A stretch of 64,000 nt of DNA, taken from NCBI GenBank assembly GCA_964016885.1, contig OZ024751.1, positions 7,750,001-7,814,000 of the forward strand, given 5' to 3'. The notes beneath the pieces are model-generated. The model was not told the DNA's origin, did no database searches, and was given only the letters and a program-made list of their open reading frames with translations. Both the position numbers and the translations under genes were made by a program. The DNA is from Eledone cirrhosa (Eukaryota). This document shows positions 7,066 to 64,000 of this stretch, piece after piece (within the stretch, counting starts at the first letter, position 1; the number at the start of each line of letters is the position of its first letter).

Positions 7066-7066
7066 A

Positions 7067-12327: not shown

Positions 12328-12383
<56 letters not shown>

Positions 12384-14455: not shown

Positions 14456-14546
14456 GTATATTATTAAATATAGAACTATTTTACCGTATATTATTAAATA
14501 TAGAACACATACATTCATAAGTATATCGCTATTTCTGAGCACCAAT

Positions 14547-14587
<41 letters not shown>

Positions 14588-14588
<1 letters not shown>

Positions 14589-21597: not shown

Positions 21598-21640
21598 AAA
21601 TATAGAGTAAGCTGCTAATATTATATGAGATCGAAAATAG

Positions 21641-30915: not shown

Positions 30916-30921
<6 letters not shown>

Positions 30922-30952
30922 CTTTACATATGCTGCAACACTGACGTCAAAT

Positions 30953-30988
<36 letters not shown>

Positions 30989-31025
30989 ATTTGACGTCAG
31001 TGTTGCAGCATATGTAAAGATTTTA
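30916..31025. repeat. Perfect 110-bp palindrome centred on (TA)n
   Basis: 30916-30955 is the exact reverse complement of 30986-31025, and the centre is self-complementary (TA)n. Confidence 0.95.
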
Positions 31026-44039: not shown

Positions 44040-47000
44040 GCTTGTATATTTCTATATTTTTATAAATAATGATAACAGCTACTGTGATAACAAGAACACC
44101 AACAAGAACAACGACAACAAGAAGAAGAACACTTTCGACAACAAGAAGAACACTTTCGCTGCAGCAGCAGCCAAAAATAGGCCATGCTTCAACGTTGGCC
44201 CAGGGTTGCCTGGGCCAACTTAACTGTCCCTGTAGAAGCTATTGAGTCAGTGGAGCGCAGAACAGTGCATTATAGATGCATTTCAGCATAAACCAAAAGG
44301 GCAGGTTTTGTCCCACAAGAAGATGTCAATGTCGCGGTGAGGTGTATCAGAGATGACACCGAATACATAGCGAGTGGCAGACAGTACGGCACCATTTTGG
44401 TGCTGTTCAAGTCAGATGCCCTAGCTATGAAACACGCTATGACGTTTTGCAAAACCAGCAAGGTCATAATCTACCCCTCCCAAATGGGAAAAAGAACAGC
44501 CTGTCTCCGCATTCCCAGAATCCCACCAGGACTTAACATGTGGTGGCTTCTGGGATGTGTGACTGTGGAGGGGACGGATACCGTCCCGATAGAAGTGACA
44601 AGAACGGCCAGAGGACTAGTCCGGGGTTGACCTGGAGATCCTTCTCCAGATCAGGCCCGAGAATCTGAAGACAATCCCGGACCACACCCGCCTTCAGAAT
44701 GGGACGGTCATTCATATTATGACCGAGGGCAAAAGGACGCATTGTTTTGTTTGTGGAGAAAAAAAAACCTTTTGCGACCTTCTGCCATCAACTGCTGAAA
44801 GATGCAAGAGGTCGAAGGGCTCCACTGCTGCCGACGCCGAGGCGAGGACGGCAACCAACATCAACACCGACAAAACCACCAGCAACAACACCAATAGAAA
44901 GACCACCACCAACATTGACAAGCCAGGGCGGAAATGAGGAAAGTTGTCAAATTCCCCCGCCCCCAAAGATAGATACATCAATAAAAACAGAAACGCACAC
45001 ACATAGACACTTACAGACACAGGCCCCTCATCTACCAGTAGTGAAGATGAGGGAAAACCAAAATCCCCCAAAATACAAACAAGGAAACACAAAAAGAAAA
45101 CAAAAACTCAACAAACACAAAATACACAATAAAAATAGAGACAGCACCCACGCAAACATCTCTCCAATAACACCAACATCAACACAACTATCACCATCAC
45201 CAGAATCCCCCAAACGCAAACAACCTAAAGAGACGCAATAACAAATACACACACAAACATCTGAAACCACAGACACCGCACTCAACAAAAACTGTCACAA
45301 CCGAAACAACACCACCAAAACCATCACCACCCCAGCCACACAAACAAATAAAATCACACCAACAAAATGTAGTCCTCGTCAGGAGGGCCAACAAATAACT
45401 GATGGCCCTCGTAGCACGAAGTGAAAATATACAAAAAGAAGGGGACATTTTTAAATCGAGCACATTTCGCGTGGCGGAAGATTTGTTTCATGTGCAAATG
45501 TCGCTCGATTTATACAAAGAGATACGAGACAGCTTTGCTCGGGACGTGTGAACCCCGAACGTAAAACTCGCTTCAAGACTTTTAAAGGGGATCCAAAAAG
45601 AAACCCCATCAACTATGGAGGTCGAACCACCTGAACTTCACAAGAGCCCGGAAGGTAAGTAAACCTTTCCTCTCTCACTCTCTTTTAATCTGCCAACATG
45701 ACCGTATTAAGAGTAGGAATTTGAAATGTTCGAGGCCTGGGATCGTCCTGGAAGCAGGGTCAGCTGCTCAACGACCTCAGGTCTCTAGAAATGGCGAGAC
45801 CAGGATTTCCGACACGCGCACACTAGCCCCCATTTTCGACGACTATAAAATCTTTGCATCTGTTAGTCGACCGGGAATGGGAGGTGGTGTGGAAGTGTTG
45901 TTTAGGAAAGGCTTGGATCTCCAGGTAAGGTCGATTTTCCGGGACCCGGGTAGGAATTTGGTCGTCCTGGACGTGAACAATAAAGAAGGTGGTGCTTTTA
46001 AACTGGTGGCCGGATACGCCCATACTAGAGCACGACGGCCGGAATTCTTTAGGCGCCTGGAAGCCTTTCTGGGTACGTCTCGCCCGTTACTGTTAGCGGG
46101 GGACTGGAACGGCATCTTAGACTCACGCTGGGACTGTGTGGGAGTAACGATAGAAGCGGGGGGTGCAAAGGCCTCAAGAACCTGATCGGCCAGTTCCAAC
46201 TGTCTGACAGGTACCGACTAGATTTCGCTAAATCGCCAGTGTAGACCTGGACTAACCACATAGGGTCATCTAGATTGTATATTGACAGGATATTCATTCT
46301 GAAAATAGACAGAAATTGTGTAAGCTGGCCACGTTTTAAACGGTCTCCTATTCAGATCAGCAACTAACGTGCTTGCGGCGAGAATGGCATTATACCATTT
46401 CTTCAATGCGAAACACGAACATTGCATTGTCAAAGTTAAGGCGCGAGCTCTAAGAAACGAGGGAACCAAAGCCGTACGATGGGCCTGCGTAGCAGAGGCG
46501 CAGCGTGGTAATAAAACCACAATTCGGTCTTTGACGGACCGAGATGGACACGAGCTGAGCGATTCCAAGTGGATGTGTGAGGCCTTTCGCTAACATTTTG
46601 CTAGGTTGTTCGGGGGAAGTGGCGGGTCAGAGGCGGTGGCGGACTTCAGTCCCTACCTCGATGGCTTGTCGCAATTCTCGATTGCCGACGCTGGGCGCTG
46701 CGAAAGGCCGAAGCTTCAGCCGAGATTCAGGATCCCCTTTTTGGCTGCATGAGGCGCAAGTCACCCGGTTTGGATGGTCTGCCCTCCGACCTTTACGTAA
46801 ATATGCCAGAATTGTTCTCCAATCTCCTCGAAGCGCTGTACTGCAACTGGCAGCAGTACGGGAGCATTCCAAGTTCTGTGAGCCGGGGCGTAGTGACTCT
46901 GATAAGGAAATACAAGAACAAGAGGAACACATTAGACAATTACAGGCACATAACACTGCTCAACACACAGTTTAAGATTTTGGCGCTTGTGGTCGGGGGC

Positions 47001-48920
47001 ACAAACTTGCGCAATACCAACCAGGTCCATACTCAACAACCTCCACGTGATGTGATAGATCATAGAGAGGGTGGTGTGTAAACCTGGCTTCGGTGGGGAT
47101 CTGATCAATTTAGATCAATGGAAAGCATTCGATAGGGCCGACCATCGGTACCTGGAGGCTGACCTCGGCCCTGTCTTCAGAAGCTGGATCGCTGCAATGC
47201 ACAGCGGCACCTGCTCGGTAGTCAAAATTAATGGCCACCTCTTGGAACCGTTTCAGGTCTCCTGATCGGTCCGTCAAGTGTGCCCTTTCTCCTCCCTTCT
47301 GTACGTATTGACTCTCGAGCATTTACTAGCGGAAGCTGGAGCTGTTGCAGGGCATCCCGCTGGAACCGTGACGCAGAAAGGCTGTGTCGGCTTATGCGCA
47401 CTACATCACCGTGATGGTGTCGGACACCTCAGAAATCGAGGTGGTCGGCAACTTATTGGGGATAATGAAAGGTTGACGGGAGCAAAACTTAACCCGCAAA
47501 AGTCGGGGGGCTTGCAACTCGGCACCTGGAGAGACTAGTCTATGCCGTCCAACAGCGTCGTTAGGCGCTGGACGGACCGGTAAAGTTGCTCGGGGTTTGG
47601 TTCTGGCCAGACCTCCAGTTGGATAATAATTGGGACGAGGTGACAGGAAGGGTAGCCAGTCGTCCCTTGCCTCCGTTTGCGCTTCGCCATCTTGGAGCGG
47701 CTCCACTTCAAATTCTTGTGGAGAGTCAGGTTCCGCTGGTGAGGCGGTCGATCTACTGCCAGCACCCTCTACGAGGAGGGCTGGGCTTGCAGTGTCTAAT
47801 GATGCGCAGACACGCGCTGAGGCAGCGGAATCTCCAGATATTCTGCCTAAATGGTGAACACGTGTTATCGCCGATTGTCAGACGGGCCTTTCCGCAGCTC
47901 GTTTCTTTGACTGAGCTGCAGTCCTAGGGTCAAGAAGAGACCAATACTGGGTGACTGGCATCTGGAATGTTGTCAGGCACTCACTGCCCTCTATCAGGCG
48001 GGCAATGCGATCAGTGGAGCCCCCCACTCTCGAGTTCTATAGAGGAGTAGTGGTGTGCAAGTGCGACGACGCACTAAGAGAGGCTCTGGGAGTCGACGAA
48101 GTCGAACTAACCAGTCTGTTCCGAAGGACTTTCGAGCCGGGGACGATGGATAATTTCCAAAAATCCCTCGTTTGGCAGTGCTACCGGTGGGTGGGTGGGG
48201 TGGGGGGGGGGGACACTGCCGGTTCAAGATAAACTCTACAGACACAGAAGTGCTGTCAGACGGACCTGCCCGACATGCATGCAGAGCGACGAAAGCGTTC
48301 TGCATGCACTCCTCCAGTGTCCGTGCATTACTGACTTGTGGAGTTATGTCGAACAGCTGTTGTCGCGTGCAGACCGGAGCCCGGTATCGGCCGAGTCCAT
48401 AGTGAAGATCGACCCGCCGCGTTCTTTTGGCCAATTTTCCTCTGTCTGGTGGCAGTAGCAAAAGAGATTGTGTGTTGGACGAGGTTGAAAGGACTGAAGA
48501 CAGACACTTTTCTCTTCGGCCAATCCCTCATCAACGTTTTCAAGTTTCACTTGGAAAGGAAGGTGAGGGTGGAGAGAGAAGTGCTGCCCCACAGAACATT
48601 TGCTGAAAGGTGGGTGAATGTGGCGAGAATGGCACGTGAGAGTGAGTCTACTCTGGTAATGCGCCTGTAGGTGGGTGAATTTGAGGAGGAGAGGAGTGCG
48701 CTTCCAGGTTGCTCTCGAAGCGTCGGATCGTTCAGGATTGGTGGGGTACTTGAACGAACCCTGGGTGGTCATCCCCCCTATTGGGGAATTTTTCTCGTAT
48801 TTTTCTTGTTACTTTGTTATTGTTATTCATATTGTTTACTCGATTTTTCTGTAAAACCCCACTCTCCCTGTCTTTTTATTGTCACCTGTATGTCGGCCCT
48901 TTTGGCCAATAAATGAAATC
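44040..48920 (+). mobile_element. Degenerate near-full-length Tx1/L1-clade LINE
   Basis: ORF1 remnants (ASGRQYGTILVLF, EGKRTHCFVCG). ORF2 runs from ATG 45698 (MTVLRVG) with LAGDWNG, KSPGLDGLP, NLDQWKAFDR and a C-terminal zinc finger, ending at 48670. 3' end AATAAATGAAATC plus ATT repeats; many frameshifts. Confidence 0.92.
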
Positions 48921-48928
48921 ATTATTAT

Positions 48929-51900
48929 GAGACGGCGGTAACTACGGCGGAGTAAGTTATTTGAAATTTTATTAGTTATCGAAAGTTCTATATCATATTT
49001 TTTACATCGGTGTGTAGTTAAAGGACCCCTCTATCAAAGGAGGTGGTGTTTTAACTGTATTTCGCACCCTTGAGGGCTAAATTTGCATTTATTTACAATC
49101 ATAACCACAAAATTGTGTTTAAAAAAAACATGGCGGACCAAAAGGTTTTGTCCACAGGGAGGAATAGCGAGTTGCTCGGAGGGTGGAACAGCCATTTCCA
49201 CCCAATCACAAGCCAAAGTAAAAAACAAGAAAACAGCAGCAGCAGCGACAGCGACAGTGGTAGTGACAACAGCAGCAGCAGCCATTGGAACAGTAGTTAG
49301 AAAAATCGAACACCACCACCACCACCCCCAATAACAACAATAACAACAATAACAACAGCAACAGCCATAAATAACCCAAAGAACAACAACTATAACAGCA
49401 GCAACACAGAAAAAACCCACCAACGACGGCAATAAAGACAAAACTAGTGATGGGTCAACAGAAATCAAAACAAACACGTCTTTCGCTAAAGCGACAAACA
49501 ATTTTTAACAAGTACACATCACTAACAAAGAGATAAACAAGCAACAGTGTTAGTTAAAAAGACCGGACACAGGGTAAGTCTCATTCGCCCAGCTGAGATA
49601 ATAAGAAACAAGCTTTTGTGTTCGGTCTGTTATCGCAATATCGGATCAACATCGTGGCGAGTTGAACGGGCAACGGAGTCACAGGTCTAAAGAGCTATAG
49701 GGACCGTCTGGGCACAGAAAACATATATAGCCCGGGGATCGAGATATGGCACTGTGGGTGTGCTCTTCGCTACACCAGAAGAAGCCAGAGCACACTCCAT
49801 TGCACCACTCCGCAGTGACGAAATCATAATGATGCCCACATACTGCGGCCAGAGAGTCGTGAGGTTTTGAGTGACCCAGGTTTCGCCCTCAGTGGGGATG
49901 GCGTGGTTGACGGCAGTCGTCCTCGCTGACGTTGAGGATTCAAAAATCATACTCAACGTCATGCGAATAAGACAGTAAAATTGGACAGGGTCGGGGATGG
50001 ACCTAGTCATCCAGGGTGCTCTTCCAAATTGCTCTCGAAGCGTCGGGCCGTTCAGGATTGGTGGGGTACTTGAACGAACCCTGGGTCGCCATCCCCCCTA
50101 TTGGGGACTTTTCTTGTATTGATATGACGCACCTTAAGGGATTGATATGACATGACGCACCTTAAGGGATTCTGCCCCAAACTTACCAAAACAGGCACGC
50201 GCCCATCCCTTCTCCCCACGCCGTACCCCGCAACAGCAGCGGACAAACAAACAAAGACCAAAGTGGTATTAGAGAAATCACCATCCCCAACAACAAAAGC
50301 ACCATCTCTTCCACCAACCACAGAACCAATGGAGAGCATACCCCTTCCTGATATAGCTAAATCGGACAAGGAGTGCTATGAGGCTGAAGTGTGGAAACCT
50401 ATTACAACAAAAAAGGAGGAACTCCATACACCCCCCCCCCCAAACAAAAAAAGAAGATATCACCGTGGTGGTGTCGAACGCCAAGCACATCGATGTTATC
50501 GGAACTACACTAAGTGAATACGAGGCGGTGACAGGGGCAATGATCAACCAGGAAAAGTCGGTGGGCCTGCAGCTCGACACCTGGAGGGGAAGGTCCATGC
50601 TGTCCAACTGCGTCGTCGGGCGCTGGAAGTGCGAACCGGTTAAATTGCTAGGGGGTCAAGTTCGGTCCGGACCTCCAGACAGACAAATACTGGCACGAGG
50701 TGACGAGCAGGGTGGCTTCTCTCACCCAGAAATGAGAAGAGAGGAAACTTTCCCTGAAAAGTCGAGAGGAGGTGGCGAATGCGTACCTCTCGTCCGTCAT
50801 CTAATACCGCATGACCGTCGTGCCTTGTCATAAGCCTCGGCTGACTGAGTTGGAGCTTTTGCTCTATCGCTTTTTGTGGAAGGGGCGAGCTCTGATGGTC
50901 AGGCGGTCCATCTGCTGTCAACACCCGCTACGTGGAGGGCTGAGCATGACGTGGCTGTTGATGCGCAGACACGCGCTGAGGCTACGATTTCTCGACCTCT
51001 TCCTCGACGGTGATCAGGAGTGGTCGCCGTTGCTAGACGCGTTTCCCCCAGCTCCTCTCCTTGACAGAGCTGCAGTCCTGGGTCAAGCGAAGACCGAGAG
51101 GGAGCGCTTGGAGACTGGAATGTCTTCAGGGGCTCACATACCTCGACCAGTCGGGCAATGTGATCGGTGGAAACTCCACCTTGGCGTTCTATAGAGGATT
51201 AGTGGAGGGGAAGAGCGACGACTTACTTGGAGAAACTCTAGGCCTCGACGAAAATCAACTAGCCAATCCCTTCGGAAGAACTTTCAGGCCGGAGCCTATG
51301 GACAATTTCCAGAAAATCCTCTCCTGGCACTGCTACAGTGGGGCTTTGCCAGTCCGGGATAGACTCTAGAGGCATGGAAGTGCCGTCAACCGGTCATGAT
51401 CTAGCTGGGCGCAGGGCGACGAAACCGTCCTGCACGCACTCGTCCAGTGTTGAAAATTGCTGACTTGTGGGTTTATGTCGAACACCTGCTGTCGTGTGTA
51501 GAACGGATCCGGTTATCAGCTGAATCCATTGTGAGGATTTCCCGGCCCTCTTCGTTTAACCGGGAAGGGCACGCAGTTTTTATCTGTCTGGTGGCCATAG
51601 GGAAATAGATAGTATGGTGGACGCGTCTGAAAGGGCTGAAGACGAGCACTTACCTATTCGGTGATGCCCTGATTAACTTATTCAAATTTCATTTGAGGAG
51701 GAAAATCAGGGTAGAGAGGAAAGTGCCCTTTTCCCAGCATTTTGTTGAAATTGGGTGAGAGAGGCAAGAAAGGCCCGAGTGAATGTACCTCCTCTGAGTA
51801 GATGTCTGTAAATTGAAGGTGGAAAACTGGGAGAGGGCACTTGCTTTTGTGGGCAGGGTCGGCGTGGCTTTTTCTTAATGGGCTTTCTCCACGATGGCCC

Positions 51901-52050
51901 TGGGGAATTTTTCATTGTTCTTTTTTGCTACACCCTCTGTTTTTTGGAGTTTTTTACACGCAGAAATGCCCATTTGTACCGTCCTGTATTGTCCTGAACT
52001 GTCCTTAATGTCTACTTTGTGTAAACTCTTGTAGTTAATAATAAAGAAGC
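48929..52050 (+). mobile_element. Tx1/L1-clade LINE with a large internal deletion and a foreign insert
   Basis: 5' UTR plus ORF1 homologue (ATG near 49130; RGSRYGTV, MPTYCGQ, THLKGFC) joined at 50456 directly to the post-YADD part of ORF2 (DITVVVSNAKHI). The 3' UTR resembles 59617-59877. Confidence 0.9.
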
Positions 52051-52078
52051 ATTATTATTATTATTATTATTATTACAG

Positions 52079-53855
52079 TTGCATTTATCTTGCTTTATGT
52101 TCATACGAGTTATCACCAAGTCACAACCAGTGACCTCAAGAGACAACAAGGTCCGCCATGTTCAAGAAAGAACATACATACTCACACATGCATCTTTAGT
52201 GTTTAGACTTGTGATGTACTTATATTGACAGAATCTTCCTTAGTATATGGGCAGTTCCCATTAGTACTATCTTTTGTATTTCTCCTATACGCGGGTTACC
52301 TGGGATTTGCGATAAGTAATCATTAGACCCCTTAGGTATCATTCCCAGAGCGCCTACAACCTCTGGTATTGTTTTAGTTCTCAATTTCCACATATTTTCA
52401 ATTACTACCTCCAGGTCCTTATACTTGCTCAATTTTTCAAATGTTTTTATAGATACATTCTTGTCTATTGGAACAGACATATCAATTAGCAGGCATACCC
52501 TCTTTTTAAAGTCCTTCAATATTATATCAGGTCTATTTGCATCTATTTTTCGGTCTGTTTGGATGCTAAAGTTCCACAAGATTGAGATGTGATCTTTTTC
52601 AAGTATGCGAGGTGGTTGATGCTCCCACCAATTCTTTTGATGGGGCAGGTCAAAATGCTTACACATTATCCAATGTATGTATTGTGCAGCTCTGTCATGC
52701 CTGTTTAGGTATTCGGTTGGAGCTATAGGACTGCACATTGAAATTATATGGTCAATGGTCTCTGGTTGTTTTCTTGCATACACGGCATAATGGGCTGCAT
52801 CCATTTTTTATTATGTTGGCTTGGTAATTTTTTGTTGGTAGACACTGATCTTGTGCTGATATAATCAGTCCTTCAGTCTCCGATTTCAGTCCAGAGGATG
52901 CCAACCACTGATGGGTTAAAGTGTTGTCAACATCAGGATTGTTAGCTCGCTCTGGGTATTTTCTATACAGAGGCTTTTCTTGCCATTTCTTAGCCAGTTT
53001 CTGTAGTAGTTCTTTCTTTGCAGTTACTTTTACCTGCTTTGCTTTTTCTGTGTTTTCCATTTCAGCAGTAAATGGGTCTTCTGAAATTTGTAGTCCATTA
53101 TTGTATCTTTGTGCATCTTTTGTAATGGAATATGATCTTTTGATGCTTTCGTCTTTCAAAACGAGTTTGATCATCCAATCATGTGATTCCCTTAGATATG
53201 TAGATAATCCAATTGTTGCAGTTTTCAACGAAATGTCTAACTGCATTAATCCACGTCCTTCTTCTTTCCTAGGGAGATATATTCTATCTGTATCTGCCTT
53301 AGGGTGATGCATTCTGTGATTGGTTAAGAATTTTCGAATTTGTGAATCGAGCCTACGGATCTCTGTGCTTGACCAGTTGATGACATTGTAACTGGAGGTT
53401 ACTACTGGTACGGCAAGCGTGTTTATGGCATCGATCCTATTCCTTGCATTCAATTCCGTTCTTAAGATTGCTCTTACTCTGCGGTAACATTCCTTCCTTA
53501 TCCTTTCCCTCATTGTCGAGTGCTATTTCCGTCTCCTTCACAAACAGCTAGATATTTGTAAGTTTTTTCTTGATCATGTTCTCTTATCACGTTCCCCCGA
53601 TCAAGATTAATGTCTGAACTCTTCAGCAGCTTTCCTCTGGTGAACGTTGCTTTGGCGAATTTATCTAGTCCAAACTCCATTTTAACGTCATCACTGAACT
53701 GCTCCACAGTGGATAATAGCCCTTGCAATTGTTAATCATTTTTTGCAAATAGTTTCAGGTCATCCATGTAGAACAAGTGATTAATGGTTTTGTCATAGAC
53801 TTTATATCCTTGTTTTGTTTCATTGAGCATTTTACTTAATGGTATAAGTGCGATG
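52079..53855 (-). mobile_element. 5'-truncated R4/Dong element, family A, frameshifted
   Basis: Collinear with 4470-6246; ORF pieces 52220-52804, 52752-53513 and 53510-53728; (ATT)n on both sides. Confidence 0.95.
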
Positions 53856-54091
53856 GTATTATTATTATTATTATTGAATGCCATGGTTGACGGAGGCTCG
53901 GCTCTGTAAGGTATAGTAATTTTTAACCGTTAAAACAATTGTAAATTGTTTAAAACTTGAACCAAATTGTTTATAAAGACACCCTCCTCCTCGTGAGAGG
54001 GGTCTTTCTGTCCGTTATTTGGCCCTTCGGGGTTAAATAACCACTTATTGGGGTTTTGTACCCAAAATTTCATTTTAAACAAAAAAACAAC

Positions 54092-56188
54092 ATGGCTACG
54101 AAAAAGAAATTTCATACGTCACTCCCACTCATTCCGTCTTCTTCTTCCTCAATCATCACTACAGCAGAGAGAAGATTGTCTCTCTCCCTCCCTTCTTTAA
54201 ATGTGTCTCTCTCCCTCCCTTCTCTTTCGCAAGCAACGAAAGAAAAGAAAAGTCTCGTGCAAAGCGTGCAAGGTTTCTCCACGACGACGACGACAGCGAC
54301 GAAACAGGTGTGCGGGAAATACGAAAACCCAGTTCATTCGTCTGACGTCAGCAATAATAGCAGTAGCAGCCGTAATAACAACAGCAACAGTGACAATGAA
54401 AACAACAGTAGCAGCCGCAACAGCATCACCAGCAACATAAACAACAACAGCATTAGCAGCAGCAACACCAACAACAACCACAGCAACAGCGGCGGAGGCA
54501 GTAGTCGTAGTACCTGCAGCAACAACAAAAGTACCAGTGGCTCTGACGACAACAACAACAGCAGAGAAAAACCAATCTCATTTGCAGGTATTGCGAAAAA
54601 CTTGGAAACAATCCTCATAACAAATGAGGAATTAGAGGAAGCGAAGAAGATGGTGACAAAGAACGGACACCGAGCAATCTGCAAGGCAGCGGAAAAGTTT
54701 TTCGAGACCCAAGAGCACTGTACGGTCACGTACCGTACAGTAAGTACAAAATCCCGTAGGGTGGAAAGAGCCACGGAGGCCCAAATACAAAAAGCCTTGG
54801 GGTCTGTGTGGCAGCGGAAAACGCACATCACCCGAGGCAAAAAATATGCCACCGTAGACGTACTTTTTGCCACACCCCAGGAGGCAAAGGCCCAATCAGT
54901 AGTGACCCTAAGGAGCGAGGAAATGGTGTTGGTGCCCTCCTACTGCGGGCAAAAAATTGTGAGGGTCAAACTGACCCACGCCCCCCCCGGAATGACCCCT
55001 TCTTGGCTGGCCGCGTCTGTCCTCGTCGGAATCGAGGACAAAACAACTGTACTGCAAGTACAGAAAAAAGTAAGAGAAGATTGGGTCGGCTCCTCCATTG
55101 AGATGCTAATCCAAACCAACCAGGAGTGCATCGAAGCTATCCCGGATGTGATAGACTTCGATAACGGCACTCAACTGCCCATAAGTGTTGAGGGCAAACG
55201 CCCGAAATGCTTTCGCTGTGGATCGAAGACTCACCTCAGGGCCTTCTGCAACGAGAAGACCCTGAGAAAGGAGAAAACCCCCCTCCTTCCGAATCCGGCT
55301 CCACGGCTACCAGCAACAGGACAAGCGGCAACCAGGAACGATAGGTCCGTGGCACCCATACCCACTCCACGGAAATCAAAGACAGCAGCAGCAGTGGAAA
55401 TATTAACAACAACAACAGCAATACCAAATGCAGCTGCAACAGAGACTCCAGTGCAAACATCACCAACAACAACAAGTGAAAGAGTGGAGCTGGTACCCCT
55501 CCCCGACCTTACAGAATCAGACATGGAGTGTGAGGTGGGAGAGGGATGGCAAAAGGTCGCAAGAAGGCACAAACGCAGAAGCAGCGCATCGTCGCCTTTG
55601 AAAAGGGAGGAAAGAAATGAGAAAAGGGTAAAGTCTACTGCAAAGAGACCCACAGCAGCAACACCACCAACACCATCAAAACCCACACCAGCACCACCAT
55701 CACCACCGGCGACAACCCCACCGCCAACAACACCTTCAACACCACCACCACAAGCACCAACATCGCAAACACAACAACAAAACACACACACCCAGCAACA
55801 ACGACAAGAAAATAGCAGAACCACACCCCACCCCCAGAAAAACAAATGCACGGCAATAAACACACACAACAAGAAACTAATGACTTACATAATTGAACAC
55901 ACAGACATTTCACAACAGGACTACATAATACCAGCACCAATCAAAACGCCAACTAACATAAGACTGCTAAAAATAGCACAGAAACAATACACAAACACTA
56001 AAACGAAATTCCCCAACGCAGTTGGTGATTTCAGGGACCTAGGAGGAACCATCAATCGAAGAGTATATTCAGACATTCTCTTAGAAGAGCCGACGACCAG
56101 CCGAAGGGACGATTCAACGGTCCCTTCACCAGACGATCAAGTGAAAAGGGATGTAAAAACCATCCCTCCTCTACCAAAAGTACGGTAA
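54092..56188 (+). CDS. Tx1 ORF1, gag-like nucleic-acid-binding protein (698 aa)
   Basis: The first ATG is at 54092 (AACATGG); the track start at 54056 is TTG. It has a CCHC knuckle CFRCGSKTHLRAFC plus Ser/Asn-rich and Pro/Thr-rich low-complexity segments. Confidence 0.88.
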   Translation: MATKKKFHTSLPLIPSSSSSIITTAERRLSLSLPSLNVSLSLPSLSQATKEKKSLVQSVQGFSTTTTTATKQVCGKYENPVHSSDVSNNSSSSRNNNSNSDNENNSSSRNSITSNINNNSISSSNTNNNHSNSGGGSSRSTCSNNKSTSGSDDNNNSREKPISFAGIAKNLETILITNEELEEAKKMVTKNGHRAICKAAEKFFETQEHCTVTYRTVSTKSRRVERATEAQIQKALGSVWQRKTHITRGKKYATVDVLFATPQEAKAQSVVTLRSEEMVLVPSYCGQKIVRVKLTHAPPGMTPSWLAASVLVGIEDKTTVLQVQKKVREDWVGSSIEMLIQTNQECIEAIPDVIDFDNGTQLPISVEGKRPKCFRCGSKTHLRAFCNEKTLRKEKTPLLPNPAPRLPATGQAATRNDRSVAPIPTPRKSKTAAAVEILTTTTAIPNAAATETPVQTSPTTTSERVELVPLPDLTESDMECEVGEGWQKVARRHKRRSSASSPLKREERNEKRVKSTAKRPTAATPPTPSKPTPAPPSPPATTPPPTTPSTPPPQAPTSQTQQQNTHTQQQRQENSRTTPHPQKNKCTAINTHNKKLMTYIIEHTDISQQDYIIPAPIKTPTNIRLLKIAQKQYTNTKTKFPNAVGDFRDLGGTINRRVYSDILLEEPTTSRRDDSTVPSPDDQVKRDVKTIPPLPKVR

Positions 56189-56223
56189 GTGGTCTTTCCC
56201 ATCTTTTCCACTCTATTTTAAAC

Positions 56224-59200
56224 ATGACCTCACTCAGAATAGGCAGCATAAATGCGCGTGGCTTGGGGTCGTCATGGAAGCAGTGTCACCTGCTCAACGA
56301 CCTCAGGTCACTAAACATAGATGTAGTGGCCATCAGCGAGACCAGAATCTCCGAAGCACGGGCCTTCGCACCGATCTTCGGCGGCTACGATGTGTACGCA
56401 TCTCCCAGCCGTCCTGGATCGGGTGGAGGAGTTGCTGTGCTTTTTCGGAGAGGTTTGGATCTCGCCATACGGGCCATCTTCCTGGACCCAGAGGGTAAGC
56501 TGGTGGTGCTGGACGTGGCCAGCGGAGACGGGCAAGCTTTCAGGCTAGTGGCCGTCTATGCCCCGACAGGAGCAGGGCGGCCTGATTTCTTCCGGCGTCT
56601 GGAGACCTTTCTTGGAACGTCCCGCTCTTTAGTGGGCCACTGGAACGGGATCTTAGATGCACGCTGGGACTGTGTGGGATTAGCGGATAGGGGTGGAGGG
56701 TGCAAGAGCCTCACCAACCTGCTCAGGCGTTTTGAACTGTCTGACAGGTACCGATTGGATTTCCCGAATGTGCCAATGTGGACTTGGACAAACCGCATAG
56801 GGTCATCCAGATCATATCTAGATAGAGTATTTTGTAGGGAAATAGATAGGTCTAGCATAGGCTGTCCACAATTCAAGATAGTCAGCTACACGGACCACAA
56901 ATTCGTGATCTGTGTGCTTGACTTAGATAGGCTTCATAGACGAGGACCCGGCTACTGGAAGCTAAACGCGTCCTTACCAGCGCGCAAGGCCTACAGAGAC
57001 CGGATTAGCGAACTAGTTAAGCGGGCGTTAACGGGGGCCATCGTCAACAACAAGTGGTGGTTTGCTCTGAAAAGAGCGATTAGAATAGAATCGATTAGGT
57101 TTAGTAAGGCTTTAGCAATAGAGAAAAATAGAGCAGAGGGAGAACTAGTTAGAAAATTAGACGAGGCGCTTAGCAAAGGCATTGCGACCGACGTGCTTGC
57201 GGCGAAATTGGCCCTTGAACAATTCTTCAATGCAAAGCACGAAGGCTGCGTTGTCAGAGCAAGGGTGCGTGCTCTCAGACACGAGGGGTCGAAAGCCGTT
57301 CAATGGGCCCGAGTGGCGGAGGCGCGTCGTGGCAACAAAGCCACGATCCCGTCTTTGGTGGACCACGACGGGCGCATGCTACTCGATCCCGGGAAAATGT
57401 GTGAAGCTTTTCAGCGACACTTCGCTCAGCTTTTCGGGGGCAGCGGTGGGCCGGGTAGAGGGATGAACTTTAGTGTCTACCTCGACGGACTGCCGCGGCT
57501 CTCGGCCACTGAGGCGAGGGGTTGCGAAAAGCCGATAACAGCCGCTGAAGTAAGGGAGGCAATGACTGGCTGCACAAGGGGTAAATCGCCTGGTTTGGAT
57601 GGTCTGCCCTATGAACTTTACGTACAGATGCCAGACTTGTTCGGAGGCCTCTTGGCGGACGTCTACTGCAACTGGCAACAGAACGGGAGAATTCCCAGTT
57701 CTGTGAGCCGAGGAGCGGTGGCACTGCTGAGAAAGGATCCGAACAATTTCCGGCCATAACTCTGCTAAACACAGAGTTCAAGATTTTGGCCAAGGTGCTA
57801 GCAAAGAGGTTGGCGCTTGTCGTTGGTGGTCTGGTGGGAGAGGCGCAGACATGCGCCATTCCTGACAGATCCATCCACGACAACCTCCACCTCATGCGAT
57901 ACATCATAGAGAGGGTAGCTAAGGAACCTGGCACGGGTGGGTCCTTGATCAATTTAGATCAGTCGAAAGCTTTCGATAGGGTCGACCATCGTTACCTAGC
58001 GGCAGTCCTGAGGGCGGCTGGCTTTGGGCCCGTCTTCAGAGGCTGGATCGCTGCCATGCACAGCGACATCTGCTCTGTGGTGAGAGTGAACGGTCACCTG
58101 TCGGAACCGTTCAACATCATGCGCTAGTCCGCCAAGGATGTCCCCTCTCGTCCCTCTTGTACGTATTGACTCTCGAGCCATTACTGCACAAACTGGAGAC
58201 GTTGAGGGGAGTCCCGCGCGAACTAGGATGCGGAAGATCCGTGTCAGCATATGCGGACGATGTCACCGTAGTGGTGTCGAACGCCAAACACATCGAGGCG
58301 ATCGGCACTACACTAAGAGAATACGAAGCGGTGGCAGGAACAATGATCAACCAGGAAAAGTCAGTGGGCCTGCAGCTCGGCACCTGGAGAGGCAGGTCCA
58401 TGCCGTCCAACAGCGTCGTCGGACGCTGGACGGACGGACCGGTTAAATTGCTAGGGGTCTGGTTCGGTCCGGACCTCCAGACGGACAAAAACTGGGACGA
58501 GGTGACGAGCAGGGTGGCTTCTCTCACCCAGAAATGGGCGGAGAGGAAGCTATCCCTGAAAGGTCGAGCGGAGGTGGCTAACGCGTACATCGCGTCTGTC
58601 ATCTGCTACCGCCTGACCATTCGTACCTTGTCCTAAGCCTCGCCTGACTGCGCTGGAGCGTTTGCTCTTTCGCTTTTTGTGGAAGGGACGTGCTCCGATG
58701 GTCAGGCGGTACATCTGTTGTCAACACCCGCTACGTGGAGGGCTGGGCATGCCGTGGCTGATGATGCGCAGGCACGCGCTCAGGCTACGACATCTCCACC
58801 TCTTCCTCGACGGTGATCAGGTGTGGTCGCCGTTTGCTAGACGCGTATTTCCCCAGCTCGTTTCCTTGACGGAGCTGCAGTCCTGGGTCAAGCGAAGACC
58901 GAGAGGGAGCGCCTGGAGACTGGAATGTCTTCAGGCGTTTACAGCCCTCGACCAATCGGGCAATGTGATCGGTGGAAACTCCACCTCGGCGTTCTATAGA
59001 GGATTAGTGGAGGGGAAGAGCGACGACGTACTTGGGGAAACTCTAGGCGTCGACGAAAATCAACTAGCCAATCTCTTCCGAAGAACTTTCGGGCCAGGGC
59101 CTATGGACAACTTCCAGAAATCTCTGGCCTGGCAGTGCTACCGAGGAGCCTTGCCAGTTCGGGATAAACTCTACAGGCATGGAGGTGCCGTCAGCCGGGC

Positions 59201-59616
59201 ATATCCGAGATGCGCGCAGGGCGACGAAACCGTCCTGCACGCACTCGTCCAGTGTCCGAAAATTGCTGACCTGGGTTTATGTCGAACACCTGCTGTCGCG
59301 TTTAGGACGGATCCGGCTATCATCTGAGTCCATCGTGAGGATTGCCCTGCCCTCCTTCTTTAGCCGGGAAGGGCAGGCAGTTTTTATCTGTCTGGTGGCC
59401 ATGGCGAAAGAGATAGTATGGTGGACACGTTTGAAAGGGCTGAAGACGAGCACTTACCACTTCGGTGATGCTCTGATTGACTTTTTCAAATTTCATTTGA
59501 AAAGGAAAATCAGAGTAGAGAGGGAAGTGCTCTCTTCCCAGCATTTTGTTGAAAGATGGGTGAGAGAAGCAAGAATGGCCCGAGTGAATGGGCCTACTCT
59601 GAGCATATATCTGTAA
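56224..59616 (+). pseudogene. Tx1 ORF2 (APE endonuclease, RT, zinc finger), disrupted
   Basis: Motifs SINARGL, ISET, AVYAP, SYLDR, TDH (APE) and KSPGLDGLP, DQSKAFDRV, YADD (RT). Frameshifts lie near 57756, 58125, 58620 and 59270. The APE GDWN motif reads GHWN. Confidence 0.9.
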
Positions 59617-59875
59617 ATTAAAGGTGGAAAACTGGGAGAGGGCACTTGCCTTGGTGGTCAGGGTCATTGTGGCTTTTTACTGGGCTTTCTCCACAAATGT
59701 CCCTCCGAAGACTCCCCCGTATTGGGGAATTTTTCATTGTTATTTTCATTGTTATTCTTGTTACATCCTCTGTTTTTGTTTTTTACAAGCAGAAATGCCC
59801 ATTTGTACCGTCCTGCATTGTCCTGCACTGTCCTTAATGTCTACTTTATGTAAACCCTTGTGGTTAATAAAGAAA

Positions 59876-59928
<53 letters not shown>

Positions 59929-60185
59929 TATATGTATGTATTGTGTCCCCTTAAAATGTATACACACTTTTTTTTGAATGCTGATGAAGTGTGTATATAT
60001 ATTCGTGGGTACACTCTTTATATATATATATATATCCATCACCACCAAAGAAGTCAAAGGAGCCATTTATTACAGAGTCGGGTTAGATCGATACAGATCG
60101 ACCTTTGAGCTGATCAATAACGAAACGCGCCTTACCAATCAATAAACGTAATGAAGGAGTAACCACTCGTCCTTCATTTATTTTA

Positions 60186-60325
<140 letters not shown>

Positions 60326-60382
60326 TAGCGGCGATGAATTAGTTTTGCGAGGTTTTTTATATGAAATCGTGTGTCGAAACAA

Positions 60383-60674
60383 ATATTGTTATACTTGGGG
60401 AGGGTCATATTTGTGTAATATTGCCAGAATTAATAACAGAACACACTCACTGCTTGGTTGGTTTTCGCTTCTCGCTGTCTTTTATATCGGTATTATTTTG
60501 TATCTGTATTATTTTTTAACCGTTGGTCAGTCAATGGCAACATTGACGACCGAGTAAGTTAGATTACCGATATAAAAGTCAGCGAGAAGTGAAAACCAAC
60601 CAAACAGTGAGTGTGTTCTGTTATTAGTTCTGGCAATATTACACAAATATGACCCTCCCCAAGTATAACAATAT
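60383..60674. repeat. About 290-bp foldback with GCAA-capped apex
   Basis: 60383-60492 is nearly the reverse complement of 60565-60674; inner stem GGTC-A-GTCAATG/GCAA/CATTGAC-GACC at 60525-60551. Confidence 0.9.
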
Positions 60675-60690
60675 ATATATATATACATAA

Positions 60691-60773
<83 letters not shown>

Positions 60774-60783
60774 AATATAAATA

Positions 60784-60830
<47 letters not shown>

Positions 60831-60921
60831 CTTGAATAAACATGTTATTTTTACGTAAATACATTTTTTCCCATCACAATTTTCCCGTCCAATCATTCTA
60901 TCTTATTTCTCATTCTTTTTT

Positions 60922-60950
60922 CTGATGCAGGACTAGCGTCCGAAACGTTA
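60922..60950 (+). ncRNA. Degenerate minimal hammerhead motif (Penelope pLTR-type)
   Basis: CTGATG-CA-GGAC-tagc-GTCC-GAAACGTTA: stem II and palindromic AACGTT are intact, the core has C at position 9, and stem I is poor. Confidence 0.5.
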
Positions 60951-61113
60951 ATACTCTCTTTCCTGATATATCAAGCGTTAACCTAATATATCCTTTCCAT
61001 ATACTGTACCGATCGTTTTGCTATTGCTGTTTAACTTTTACATACATGTAAACTGAATTTAAAACGATAATTTCTTGTTTTTGGATATGTCACAATCTGT
61101 AAAACAACTTTTG

Positions 61114-61174
61114 TATTTTATCTGATGGGGGCGTACCAAAATGATGGTATTCTTGAAATATATATAATAAAATA
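61114..61174 (+). ncRNA. Minimal type I hammerhead ribozyme motif, A9G variant
   Basis: Stem I TATTTTAT/ATAAAATA; CTGATGG; stem II GGGCGTACCA/TGGTATTCTT (G-U rich, one mismatch); GAAA-TATATA-TA. Confidence 0.6.
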
Positions 61175-61304
61175 AATCTGGTTTTATAAAGATAGTTTCC
61201 ATTTATTAATATGATTGATATTATAGTCCAGAAGAATCTTGTAGTGTGCTTTGAATCCGTTAAAATAAATATGTTGAATAACCAAAAAATTAAATAAATC
61301 TTTG

Positions 61305-61358
<54 letters not shown>

Positions 61359-62820
61359 GATATCTACGGTAGAATAAATCCCTGAAAACAATAATACATT
61401 GAAAGGAAAACAGAGTCATGGTATAAGTTAAATCAATGAAATAAAAAATGATATTTTTAACAGCTTTAGAAAAACCTCTCGAGTTCATATATATTTTAAC
61501 TTTAATTATATCTCATAAAATAATACAACTGGCTTTCCACATAATACATATAGTTAGCACCCCAAACACTTAAATTGGGTTTATACTAACATATAACCTA
61601 ATGTTTGTTGAGTGAGATGGTTACCAGTCAGAGTTTAGCTTTATGCTATCTCTGTTATTGTATTAAATTATATATATATATATATATATATTTATACAAA
61701 TATAAATTAGCGAGATTCGTATTTCGGTTTTGGAAATTAGCGAAAAACAACTTCCGAGATGTGTGGCAAGCGCTCAATAATTCTAACGAACCAGAGCTAC
61801 ATATATATATATATATCGATATGTTTTTCTAAAGCTGTTAAAAATATCATTGTTATATTTCCCGTATAAGACGAACATTCTTATATTTTATAATAGCAAA
61901 CGCTCTCACGTCTATCAAGCATCAATGCTGTAGTCAATTTTATTATAACTTACGTAAAATTATAGTATTCTAACTTACTCCACAGATATAATAGATGATT
62001 ATATGCGTATATAAAGAGAAAACAATTACATTTGAATTGAATAAGTGTTGTGATATTGCGGAATATATTACCAGTGTTGGATGGAACAAACGCATTGTCA
62101 GTATAGCAGGCGCAGTTATATTAAATAATCGATTATTAATACTGAAGCCAAAGTTATTGAATATGACTATGTGACTTCTACATCTGGATTATATTCATTA
62201 TATTAAGATGACATAATGTAAGACAATTAATGTGTTGCTAATTACCCAAGAGCTATTAGACGTAGTCATTTTTCAACACCAGACTGTCTTATATATATTC
62301 CTTTTATAATTATTGTAAGAATATATAAATGGATATAATTACGCAGCATTTCATTTAAAATCGATTAATATGTATATTAATCAAACCCTCTCTCTATCTC
62401 TCCGCAAACACGCACGCACACGCATATTATAACACAAACGCACACACGTGCATGCACACACAGACACACACACATATATATATATGTGTGTGTGTATACG
62501 TATGTATGTATTTAAACGACGACGTTTCGTTAACATGTAGATTTTAAACATTTAGATTTTTAGTGTGTATTGATATGTTAAGCACGTTTCGCATATGATT
62601 AGCTCAGTGTCACCCATAGAAGCCTTGGACCCGACTCCATTATCTATCTGCTCTTCATGTTTTTATTAATATATACATTCTGCCTGTGCATAGATTGCTT
62701 GATTTTGTACCTCCACCATTAATTCACTGAATCACACAGAGTGTGTATATATATATAAGCTTCCAACAGAAATGGTCGCATTCTTTAAGGGTATGTCAAT
62801 ATTTATTTATAAAACTGCTC

Positions 62821-62898
62821 TATATTATATTTTATCTGATGAAAGCACACCATAATTTAACTTGGTGTCCTTGAAATATGTATAATGAAATAAATATG
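62821..62898 (+). ncRNA. Minimal type I hammerhead ribozyme motif, canonical core
   Basis: CTGATGA at 62836; stem II AAGCACACCA/TGGTGTCCTT (9 of 10 paired); GAAA at 62873; short stem III; AUA cleavage triplet at 62882-62884; 14-bp stem I with one bulge. Confidence 0.72.
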
Positions 62899-63049
62899 GT
62901 TTTATAAATATAGTTTCCATTTGTTAATATATCGTATTTTTACTCCAATAATTTGTTGAGTGTTTTTGGAAATAAAGATAATATGAAAATCGTATGGTGC
63001 TTGTCTTTCATTTTATTGGCGAGACTGGAAAATAGCAATGATCATCACC

Positions 63050-63300
63050 GTGTACCGTACATTTTCAACGTTAGCATGGGTTAGACGTGTTATCCTGTTA
63101 TGAGATTACCTAGGTTAGGTTGCGCTCATATAGAACTGATTTCGGCTAGGTTTCTATATCTGGATGCCCTTCCTGACACCAAACATTTTTACAGTGAGTG
63201 CCAGCTGCTTTTTGTCGTGATACCTGCAGGACTTTCACAGGGTTGCCTGAGTGCTTTACTCGTGACACCTACACGACCACATTAATGTGGGCTAGGCTCT
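63050..63300 (+). repeat. Probable old interspersed repeat
   Basis: Contains GGATGCCCTTCCTGACACCAA, a motif I recall from metazoan non-autonomous retroposons; single copy here. Confidence 0.4.
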
Positions 63301-63519
63301 TTTTTGTCGAGTCACCTATACGATCACTTTACAGTATGAGCTGGGGATTTTTGTGGAAGTGCTATGTGGGGTTTGGGGTGGGTATATAAACGTATGTAAT
63401 GAGCGGATTAGTATGACATGGGAGGTGATTGGAAGGGGGTGGAATGGAAGGTGGTGTATAGTAGATATATGCTTCTGCCTGTGCTCATGGGAAGGCGGGT
63501 TTTCTCATTTACTGTATAA

Positions 63520-63990
63520 CGCCAGAGATCACGGCACTGTATCATCGACTGTTAAAGGTGCTATTGTGAAAAATTCACTTTTATCCCCTCATCCAAAGTC
63601 TTGTTTGTGTTTTACTACCACATAGCGTCCAACAATTGTGAGCGCACTTCACCTTTTTATACTGCTTTCAGCCTCCATACAAATCACTAGTCCATACCTA
63701 CGTGATCTACTCTCTTGCACATATCAGAACCCTCTGATGCCTAATTTCTGTCTCAGTTCGTTTATGCTTGCCTTTCACGTATATTAATATTACACATATT
63801 TTCATCGAAACTTGCAAGCTTTATTTCTTTCCAATCTTCGCAATTCCTACTCACACTGTGTCCAGGCCTTACTAACGCCACACATTTCTGTTAACATAGC
63901 GGAAGCTATTTTTATAGCGTTTGATTGCCGTGGTAGTCTGCTCTTGCTGGTCCGTTGCAATGGGTACATGTAAAACCTACGGTCTTAGCT
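63520..63990 (-). mobile_element. RTE-clade LINE C-terminal remnant
   Basis: Across frameshifts the minus strand gives SKAW..ELRRLERNKA..MCNINIRERQ..NELRQKLGIRG..VQESRSRRYGLV, an RTE C-terminus. Confidence 0.72.
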
Positions 63991-64000
63991 AAATTACCTG

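What the first reader, a model, noticed from the sequence alone, without database searches (positions are those of the whole stretch)
61070..62980. Pair of hammerhead ribozymes in diverged direct repeats bracketing 1.7 kb of non-coding DNA
Seen: 61070-61270 and 62780-62980 are diverged direct repeats of about 200 bp, and each folds into a type I hammerhead (stem I, CUGAUGR, 10-position stem II, GAAA, tiny stem III with a near-palindromic loop, AUA site). Stem II differs between the copies but stays paired (GTACCA/TGGTAT vs ACACCA/TGGTGT: T-A to C-G and G-U to A-U), while loop II is unrelated. Known: minimal type I hammerheads with palindromic loop III mark Penelope-like pLTRs and retrozymes and cleave as dimers. 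Inference: cleavage at 61166 and 62884 would release a 1718-nt RNA with no credible ORF, i.e. a non-autonomous Penelope- or retrozyme-like unit. Alternatively these are two independent solo pLTRs.
Basis: partly seen in the sequence, partly recalled or inferred. Interest (0 to 1): 0.8.

Follow-up and report, generated by a model that had tools for sequence, protein, structure and literature searches.

The report
Stacked hammerhead-bearing retroelement end fragments
Two hammerhead self-cutting RNA motifs lie 1.7 kb apart in this animal DNA, but they are likely the leftover tips of two separate Penelope-like jumping-gene insertions piled up at TA repeats, a known kind of debris, not the two ends of one new 1.7-kb element.

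Summary
The two type I hammerhead folds are real (61114-61174, 62828-62892, + strand). They are the only strict hits in 64 kb, and 0 of 100 shuffles gave one of this quality. Stem changes between them all keep pairing. The firm repeat is about 105 bp at 81% (72% if stretched to about 180 bp). Copy 1 has G at core position 9. The single-unit reading is not supported. The copies are 71% alike around the ribozyme, as related Penelope-like (PLE) families are (71%, 71%), whereas twin pseudo-LTRs I fetched as controls are 84-98%. The spacer is a patchwork of TA runs and an inverted repeat pair, with no Neptune-like or Hydra ORF remnant in a search that had power to find one. A third, unrelated hammerhead core sits 200 bp upstream, next to a repeat end with a second copy elsewhere in the window. 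Public contigs show the same layout: hammerhead ends of different PLE families stacked between TA runs. Most likely these are two independent 5'-truncated PLE ends (about 0.72). The parent element, copy number, expression and cleavage are all untested. Ordinary; interest low.

The parts
61114..61174 (+). Hammerhead copy 1 (type I): stem I 61114-61121/61167-61174, core 61122-61128 with A9 to G, stem II 61129-61138/61145-61154 (three G-U pairs, one mismatch), GAAA 61155-61158, palindromic helix III 61158-61165, predicted cut after A61166
62828..62892 (+). Hammerhead copy 2 (type I, intact core): stem I 62828-62835/62885-62892, core 62836-62842, stem II 62843-62852/62863-62872, GAAA 62873-62876, helix III 62876-62883, predicted cut after A62884
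61111..61212 (+). Firm homologous core of repeat copy 1 (81% to 62825-62930); stretches to 61075-61243 at 72%
62825..62930 (+). Firm homologous core of repeat copy 2; stretches to 62781-62957
61098..61188 (+). Distal extension of stem I in copy 1 (61098-61105 with 61181-61188), 8 of 8 paired
62808..62906 (+). Distal extension of stem I in copy 2 (62808-62815 with 62899-62906), 8 of 8 paired; part of a long rod in the minimum-energy fold
60922..60949 (+).
   Evidence: only hit in the window and 0 of 60 shuffles, with a pattern drawn up after seeing it
60966..61050 (+). 3' end of a different repeat, 40 nt downstream of the third core; its second copy (44049-43966, minus strand, 86%) runs into a TA tract, so this element likely ends at about 61050, before copy 1 begins
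61307..61354 (.). (TA)24 run, 140 nt after the first cut site; inferred target and 3' boundary of copy 1
62746..62757 (.). TA run immediately before copy 2; inferred 5' boundary of copy 2
61438..61861 (.). Inverted pair of a 57-bp repeat (61438-61494 and 61805-61861, 88%), each inner end next to TA, with a further TA run at 61669-61690: signs of a patchwork spacer
61167..62884 (+). The 1718 nt between the predicted cuts: 28% G+C, longest ATG ORF 71 aa, several microsatellites, no Pfam family in the parts scanned, no Neptune-like or Hydra ORF remnant

Best explanation
The two type I hammerhead motifs are likely the retained 3' tips of two separate, 5'-truncated insertions of related (TA)n-targeting Penelope-like retroelement subfamilies that piled up at one TA-rich spot, so the 1.7 kb between them would be older host DNA and other debris rather than the body of one element. 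Shown: the folds, the divergence pattern, the TA runs at two of four boundaries, the patchwork spacer, the absence of Neptune-like and Hydra ORF remnants, and a third unrelated hammerhead core 200 bp upstream. Inferred from known PLE biology: the PLE protein nicks AT-rich DNA and reverse-transcribes from a point a little downstream of the hammerhead; synthesis stops early (here 71-77 nt upstream of the core if the TA boundaries are right, near the base of the extended stem I hairpin), leaving a piece of about 250-280 bp. In the parent element the ribozyme would work as a dimer through its palindromic helix III, because a 2-bp A-U helix III costs +4.7 kcal/mol as a hairpin and gives -2.2 to -3.2 as a duplex. 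At this locus the motifs are probably passive. If a read-through RNA paired them as a double hammerhead, copy 2's intact core would cut at 61166 and copy 1's A9G core would have to cut at 62884, so release of the 1718-nt piece would be impaired.
For: Identity over about 115 columns around the core is 70.6% (84/119) for the window pair, 70.9% and 71.1% for two pairs of related PLE families, 98.2% and 84.1% for two twin pLTR pairs, and 46-50% for unrelated families in one stack. The 60 nt upstream are 51% alike in the window pair and 97% in the L044 twins. Of 30 stem positions 29 pair in both copies, and all 8 differing nucleotides in them keep pairing; neutral drift of twins does this in 1e-4 to 2e-3 of simulations (structure drawn from these sequences, so optimistic). 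TA runs flank copy 1 at its 3' side and copy 2 at its 5' side. The upstream element has its own second copy ending in TA. Profiles from 60 Neptune-like proteins and 8 Hydra ORF pieces find nothing in six frames of the window (best domain E 0.58, none in 59.9-64 kb), while 19-20 of 20 simulated 300-nt remnants at 10-15% decay are found. Natural analogues: L046 holds 4 and L047 7 hammerheads of several PLE families within 6 kb, mostly followed by TA runs. In L052-L054, 6 of 10 hammerheads have a TA run 30-118 nt downstream, and ends of Neptune/Nematis-like elements there use an AU-only palindrome with an AUA or AUC site. Literature: most PLE hammerheads occur as single motifs of truncated elements (PMC4209133); Hydra and Naiad PLEs prefer (TA)n (PMC8557442); PLEs tend to insert next to older copies (PMC6765202).
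Against: No parent ORF was found, so the PLE link rests on resemblance. The motif lacks two conserved marks of metazoan minimal PLE hammerheads (extra nucleotide after A9, G10.1-C11.1; PMC4209133) and has a longer stem I. No TA run marks the 3' side of copy 2. The only two copies in 64 kb lie 1.7 kb apart in the same direction, which random insertion would seldom give and needs local targeting. Both copies seem to start at a similar distance from the core, which also fits a short element with a fixed 5' end. The twin and family controls are only two pairs each, from other animals. No profile was built for Penelope/Poseidon, Naiad or Chlamys ORFs.
Confidence: 0.72

Rival explanations
1. Both copies are monomers of a short (about 250-280 bp) dispersed, non-autonomous hammerhead repeat with fixed ends, a solo retrozyme or SINE-like element, mobilised by a PLE enzyme but no longer attached to any ORF. 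The spacer is still unrelated DNA.
For: Similar inferred sizes and 5' starts (61051-61306; 62759 to about 63040); a rod-like extended stem I in copy 2; helix III of 2 bp plus a 4-nt palindromic loop, as in canonical animal type I hammerheads (PMC4209133; PMC7229834 passages); solo monomers are common in retrozyme families (bioRxiv 10.64898/2026.07.22.740005).
Against: Homology fades beyond about 105 bp and the outer flanks do not align above chance. Circular folding of the putative monomers is no better than shuffles (z +2.19 and -0.32). Stem II is 10 positions long rather than 4. No tandem copies. One of two circular-permutation tests gave a weak signal (3 of 500 shuffles, one of 8 alignments tried, AT-rich); the other gave none.
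Confidence: 0.13
2. One reading: one old non-autonomous element in which two hammerhead repeats bracket 1.7 kb and a double hammerhead releases a 1718-nt RNA that could be circularised and retro-copied.
For: Same orientation, close spacing and no other copy in the window. The stem I strands and palindromes of the two copies are mutually compatible (heteroduplex -3.2 kcal/mol). No ORF.
Against: Family-level divergence with all pairs kept. (TA)24 shortly after the first ribozyme. The spacer holds further TA runs and an inverted repeat pair. Copy 1 has A9G. Reported animal retrozyme units are 51-972 bp, and PLE twins bracket an ORF (PMC4209133; L044 and L053).
Confidence: 0.09
3. An old local duplication of one ribozyme, kept by selection for the host, for example to process a long non-coding or intronic transcript.
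For: Pairing is conserved despite 19-28% divergence, and the two copies are neighbours.
Against: The neighbourhood is repeat debris (LINE remnants and microsatellites), with no host gene seen among the ORFs scanned. Copy 1 has a core change. Selection in the parent element families explains the pairing equally well.
Confidence: 0.05
4. Chance resemblance in AT-rich DNA.
For: Very low G+C; isolated motifs fold no better than shuffles; no Rfam hit; the two-sequence shuffle control of pair counts is uninformative (269 of 500).
Against: 0 of 100 window shuffles and 0 of 43 outside core matches reach this anatomy. Slid registers pair only 40-54% against 100%.
Confidence: 0.01

Closest known systems
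Hammerheads in the terminal repeats (pLTRs) of metazoan Penelope-like elements (Cervera and De la Pena 2014, PMC4209133)
   Same: Type I fold, long helix II, palindromic unstable helix III predicted to need a dimer, occurrence as isolated motifs without an ORF, high sequence variability within a genome.
   Different: No extra nucleotide after A9, A10.1-U11.1 or G-U in place of G10.1-C11.1, 8-bp stem I with a distal extension rather than 4-5 bp, and no ORF link shown.
(TA)n-targeting EN+ PLE clades Hydra and Neptune (Craig et al. 2021, PMC8557442; loci L044-L054 fetched here)
   Same: Hammerhead close to the 3' end followed by a TA run; stacking of ends from different families; long stem II and 8-10 nt helix III palindromes in Hydra (supplementary file S2); an AU-only palindrome with an AUA site in Neptune/Nematis-like ends.
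   Different: No sequence likeness by eye to the listed Hydra motifs, including Hydra-1_Obim, or to the 3' ends of the three octopus Naiads read. The palindrome here is 8 nt and AU-only, against 4 nt in the Neptune-like examples. No ORF remnant of either clade in the window.
Non-LTR retrozymes of animals (Cervera and De la Pena 2020, PMC7229834; Li, Clavereau and Pollet 2026 preprint 10.64898/2026.07.22.740005)
   Same: Type I hammerhead with a weak palindromic helix III in a non-coding AT-rich repeat; thought to derive from PLE ends.
   Different: Those are tandem units of 51-972 bp with a hammerhead in each unit and, in the canonical ones, loop 1-loop 2 contacts. Here there is no tandem array, the spacing is 1718 nt and the spacer is not repeated.

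Membership tests
Type I hammerhead ribozyme | Core C3 U4 G5 A6 N7 G8 A9, G12 A13 A14 A15.1, U16.1 H17 | tested here: met
   Copy 2 complete; copy 1 has 10 of 11 positions (A9G)
Type I hammerhead ribozyme | Three helices around the core, open end in helix I | tested here: met
   19 of 19 named pairs form in both copies; slid registers give 40-54%
Type I hammerhead ribozyme | Self-cleavage after H17 | not testable with these tools
   No assay possible; no RNA run available
Rfam hammerhead families | Match to a curated covariance model | tested here: not met
   No hammerhead family among the 26 matches at E up to 10 in 54000-64000
Minimal PLE hammerhead (min-HHR, PMC4209133) | Palindromic positions 15.2-16.2 and loop 3 | tested here: met
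   8-nt palindromes, one with a G-U
Minimal PLE hammerhead (min-HHR, PMC4209133) | Long helix II (7-8 bp) | tested here: met
   9 pairs in 10 positions
Minimal PLE hammerhead (min-HHR, PMC4209133) | Extra nucleotide between 9 and 10.1, and G10.1-C11.1 | tested here: not met
   Copies 1 and 2 have neither; the third core at 60922 has both
Penelope-like element (EN+) | RT plus GIY-YIG ORF upstream of the hammerhead repeat | tested here: not met
   Within the window only: no Neptune-like or Hydra remnant. Pfam blank, but Pfam found only 4 of 5 intact PLE pieces, 3 above cut-off. Other PLE clades not profiled.
Penelope-like element (EN+) | Family copies elsewhere in the genome joined to a PLE ORF | not testable with these tools
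   No genome held; no relatives in the public collections searched
Penelope-like element (EN+) | Near-identical direct pLTR pair flanking one element | tested here: not met
   70.6% against 84.1% and 98.2% in twin controls; 51% against 97% upstream of the ribozyme
(TA)n-targeting PLE clades (Hydra, Neptune, Naiad) | Ends abut (TA)n | tested here: inconclusive
   Clear TA runs at copy 1 3' and copy 2 5', a decayed TA-like tract at copy 1 5', none at copy 2 3'; TA runs are common throughout the window
Non-LTR retrozyme | Tandem units under about 1 kb with a hammerhead in each | tested here: not met
   No tandem array; spacing 1718 nt; spacer not repeated in the window
Non-LTR retrozyme | Abundant linear and circular monomer RNA | not testable with these tools
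   No RNA run was listed for the stretch

The most novel reading that the evidence does not exclude
The pair is a working heterologous double hammerhead that cuts a read-through transcript into a 1718-nt non-coding RNA which is circularised and retro-copied: a giant animal retrozyme, about twice the longest unit reported (972 bp), born by capture of host DNA between two PLE ends of different subfamilies.
Probability: 0.07. Interest if true: 0.6.

Novelty: new member of a known kind. Interest (0 to 1): 0.2.

Why it matters
As most likely read, it adds one uncatalogued hammerhead variant (AU-only 8-nt helix III palindrome, 10-position stem II, extended stem I) to a class already counted in thousands per animal genome, and gives a tag for finding its parent retroelement. 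It also warns against reading two nearby hammerheads as one element: stacks of ends from different PLE families give that picture by themselves. If the unit reading were true, it would show how long non-coding retrozymes can arise from two unrelated PLE ends, which would be a useful test case for the proposed PLE origin of animal retrozymes.

Tried and rejected
No whole genome is held, so genome-wide copy collection was impossible. Sequencing runs: 8 listed, 3 holding half or more of the words, all 3 from one sample; no RNA holder listed, which is no evidence either way. No reads or contigs were laid, so copy number, element ends and variants across copies remain open. Rfam gave only microsatellite-driven miRNA-like and other weak matches. 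Pattern scans for relatives found nothing in viral, metagenome or prokaryote genome contigs. Looser patterns gave 21 metagenome and 22 viral matches, all rejected as chance: none had a stem I above 3 bp and the best model score was E 0.27. A two-sequence covariance model found no third copy in window 1-62400 or 62520-64000, and none in 3 genomes reached through the PLE loci. Host identity: a search with the window's LINE RT returned mostly unnamed proteins at 44-67% identity and did not settle the taxon. My impression of an octopus-like genome is recalled, not tested. Naiad and Hydra consensus ends in the supplement of PMC8557442 did not match by eye or by short strings; line-wrapped FASTA can hide string matches. 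RNA-editing idea: A/G differences outnumber C/T 9 to 2 in the core, but p = 0.066 and polarity is unknown with two copies, so not claimed. GAAACG-type words at about 60123 (+), 62528 (-) and about 62590 (-) lack a full core or stems and are not counted as hammerheads. The first neutral simulation used a wrong register for the distal stem and was replaced. Lunse et al. (dimer cleavage of PLE hammerheads) is not held and is cited only through the review PMC6765202. Supplements of the bioRxiv preprint were not seen and may list related repeats.

Full report
Setting. The window is AT-rich, microsatellite-rich DNA (26% G+C in 60001-62000; 12% masked as simple repeats) with several LINE remnants carrying RT, endonuclease and zf-RVT domains. 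I take it to be animal DNA; that is inferred from these features. No genome is held, and a homology search with the LINE RT did not settle the taxon. My impression of an octopus-like genome is recalled and untested.

Observation. Both motifs are in the sequence as described. A strict type I scan of both strands of 64 kb finds exactly two hits, with cores starting at 61122 and 62836, each with an 8-bp stem I. In 100 block-wise dinucleotide shuffles the same scan gave 0.06 hits on average, and 0 of 100 with an 8-bp stem I and a short helix III. As an outside control, 43 matches to a core pattern in metagenome and viral contigs never had a stem I above 3 bp. All 19 named pairs form in both copies, against 40-54% in slid registers; the shuffle control of that tool is uninformative with two rows (269 of 500). 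The cuts would fall after 61166 and 62884, 1718 nt apart, and the longest ATG ORF between them is 71 aa.

Corrections to the observation. The firm repeat is 106 columns at 81% (61111-61212 vs 62825-62930). It stretches to about 180 bp at 72% (137/190), but the flanks alone do not beat shuffles (47 of 500 upstream, 89 of 500 downstream). Copy 1 carries G at position 9 and three G-U pairs in stem II, and its minimum-energy fold is not the hammerhead (forced fold 1.9 kcal/mol worse; copy 2, 1.6). That A9 matters for activity is recalled; the section of PMC3088659 I read says core mutants usually keep only modest activity and does not list A9G. Rfam has no hammerhead match at E up to 10. Both copies extend stem I with a further 8-bp helix, and copy 2 folds into a long rod (z -2.4 over 146 nt).

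One unit or two insertions: divergence. Twin pLTRs of one insertion start out nearly identical (general PLE knowledge, checked here on two examples). I fetched PLE loci from public contigs and measured identity from 40 nt before to about 70 nt after the start of the core. The window pair is 70.6% alike. Twin pairs around one ORF are 98.2% (L053) and 84.1% (L044, where BLAST gives 94% over 151 nt). Related but distinct families are 70.9% and 71.1%, and unrelated families in one stack 46-50%. The 60 nt upstream of the ribozyme are 51% alike in the window and 97% in L044. Of 30 stem positions 29 pair in both copies, the one mismatch is shared, and all 8 differing nucleotides in paired positions keep pairing. 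Neutral decay of twins did so in 1e-4 to 2e-3 of simulations. That figure is optimistic, because the structure was drawn from these sequences. The pattern is what two subfamilies that diverged under selection on the RNA would show. The controls are few: two pairs of each kind, from other animals.

One unit or two insertions: anatomy. Copy 1 is followed 140 nt after its cut site by (TA)24, and copy 2 begins right after a TA run at 62746-62757. No TA run marks the 3' side of copy 2. The spacer holds further TA runs and an inverted pair of a 57-bp repeat with TA at the inner ends. Upstream of copy 1 lies a third, unrelated hammerhead-like core at 60922-60949 of the usual minimal PLE type, with C at position 9 and a decayed stem I. 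It is the only such hit in the window and appeared in 0 of 60 shuffles, with a pattern drawn up after seeing it. The stretch after it, 60966-61050, has a second copy at 44049-43966 that runs into a TA tract, so that element likely ends before copy 1 starts. Three hammerheads from at least two unrelated families thus sit within 2 kb on one strand, and a model of the pair finds no further copy in the parts of the window searched.

Is the spacer a decayed PLE body? Pfam found nothing credible in 32 stop-to-stop fragments and 12 read-through frames, but Pfam is weak for PLEs: it matched 4 of 5 intact pieces, 3 above the curated cut-off. I therefore built profiles from 60 of the 120 Neptune-like proteins listed (every second one) and from 8 Hydra ORF pieces. 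Neither finds anything in six frames of the window (best domain E 0.58; nothing in 59.9-64 kb). With held-out elements, 300-nt pieces were detected in 20 of 20 trials at 10% decay, 19 of 20 at 15% and 10-11 of 20 at 25%; 1000-nt pieces in 20 of 20 throughout. tblastn with 7 Hydra proteins agreed (best E 0.17, elsewhere). Penelope/Poseidon, Naiad and Chlamys ORFs were not profiled.

Natural analogues. The fetched loci come from contigs filed in prokaryote MAGs; that they are animal DNA is inferred from their PLE content. L046 has, head to tail on one strand, a Hydra-type end, an element with RT and C-terminal GIY-YIG, a Hydra fragment and a second GIY-YIG element with a CX4CxxC linker (Neptune or Nematis type). 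Each ends in a hammerhead followed by a TA run: 4 hammerheads in 6 kb. L047 has 7 in 6 kb, in both orientations. In L052-L054 (L052 overlaps L046), 6 of 10 hammerheads have a TA run 30-118 nt downstream, and the Neptune/Nematis-like ends use an AU-only 4-nt palindrome with an AUA or AUC site, the same start as the 8-nt palindrome here. Clusters like the one in the window therefore arise without any single unit.

Mechanism, shown and inferred. Shown: folds, divergence pattern, boundaries, patchwork spacer. Inferred from the literature: PLE protein nicks AT-rich DNA and starts reverse transcription inside its RNA downstream of the hammerhead, and hammerhead cleavage was not needed for insertion in vitro (PMC11167929, parts 1-2 of 4 read). 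Most PLE insertions are 5'-truncated and keep a single terminal repeat (preprint 10.64898/2026.07.22.740005, parts 1-3 of 5 read). Most PLE hammerheads are single motifs, need dimers and cleave weakly (PMC4209133, parts 1-2 of 4 read). Hydra and Naiad clades prefer (TA)n (PMC8557442: passages, section 11, supplement parts 2, 24, 53). PLEs tend to insert beside older copies (PMC6765202, passages). Helix III costs +4.7 kcal/mol as a hairpin and gives -2.2 to -3.2 as a duplex, which fits dimer dependence. By hammerhead geometry, a double hammerhead of the two copies would have copy 2's core cutting at 61166 and copy 1's altered core cutting at 62884, so the 1718-nt product would be limited by the weaker core.

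Comparison and membership. Copy 2 meets every sequence and structure feature of a type I hammerhead; activity is untested. It works like a PLE-end ribozyme, but I do not file it as a PLE, a min-HHR in the strict sense or a non-LTR retrozyme. The ORF link and twin pLTRs were tested in the window and not met, two min-HHR marks are absent, and there is no tandem array (PMC7229834, passages). I found no description of this repeat in the held literature (searches; passages of PMC13282606, which reports recently active Penelope families in Octopus vulgaris and does not mention ribozymes) or in the Craig et al. supplement. Repbase and Dfam could not be checked. An earlier AI note from another genome (e1-7858679) describes dispersed PLE end pieces that start near the hammerhead; it agrees but is unchecked and is not counted as support.

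Verdict. Real ribozyme motifs, most likely ordinary PLE-end debris from two independent insertions (0.72). A short fixed-length hammerhead repeat (0.13), the 1.7-kb unit (0.09), host-kept duplication (0.05) and chance (0.01) follow. New member of a known kind; interest 0.2. What stays open is the parent element, the copy number, expression and cleavage.

Noticed in passing
window 60922-61050 (+) and 44049-43966 (-): A third hammerhead-like core of the minimal PLE type, followed by a repeat end whose second copy, 17 kb away, runs into a TA tract.
   Followed up: partly
window 60387-60477 / 60580-60670, 11523-11820, 14337-14444, 21172-21603, 30918-31023: Several fold-back (inverted) structures, most beside or centred on TA runs; 30918-31023 is a perfect palindrome around (TA)16. 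Could be inverted 5'-truncated insertions, TA-mediated repair or assembly artefacts.
   Followed up: no
window 12146-12369 and 14545-14768: A SINE-like repeat plus TA run duplicated in inverted orientation at 99-100% identity, 2.2 kb apart, although other family copies are 72-93% alike: a recent local inversion-duplication.
   Followed up: no
window 3422-5507, 4611-7121 (-), 52099-53855: A young LINE with an open 835-aa RT frame and a 1068-bp tandem duplication of its 3' end (99%); a further copy at 52 kb (94%). Relatives at 44-67% protein identity, mostly unnamed.
   Followed up: partly
window 45695-59870: A stack of three related G+C-richer LINE copies with endonuclease, RT and zf-RVT remnants on the + strand (69-88% alike), ending in an (ATT)n tail at 59878-59921 just before the TA-rich hammerhead cluster.
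   Followed up: no
window 61128-61133: Four G-for-A differences cluster within 6 nt in copy 1 (core position 9 and stem II), as A-to-I editing of a template RNA would leave; the overall A/G excess is not significant (p 0.066) and polarity is unknown.
   Followed up: partly
L044-L050, L052-L054: Contigs filed in prokaryote MAGs carry Penelope-like elements with hammerheads, some stacked head to tail between TA runs: probably animal DNA binned into these genomes. L044 has PLE sequence inside a 490-kb contig next to bacterial-looking ORFs, a possible chimeric assembly.
   Followed up: partly
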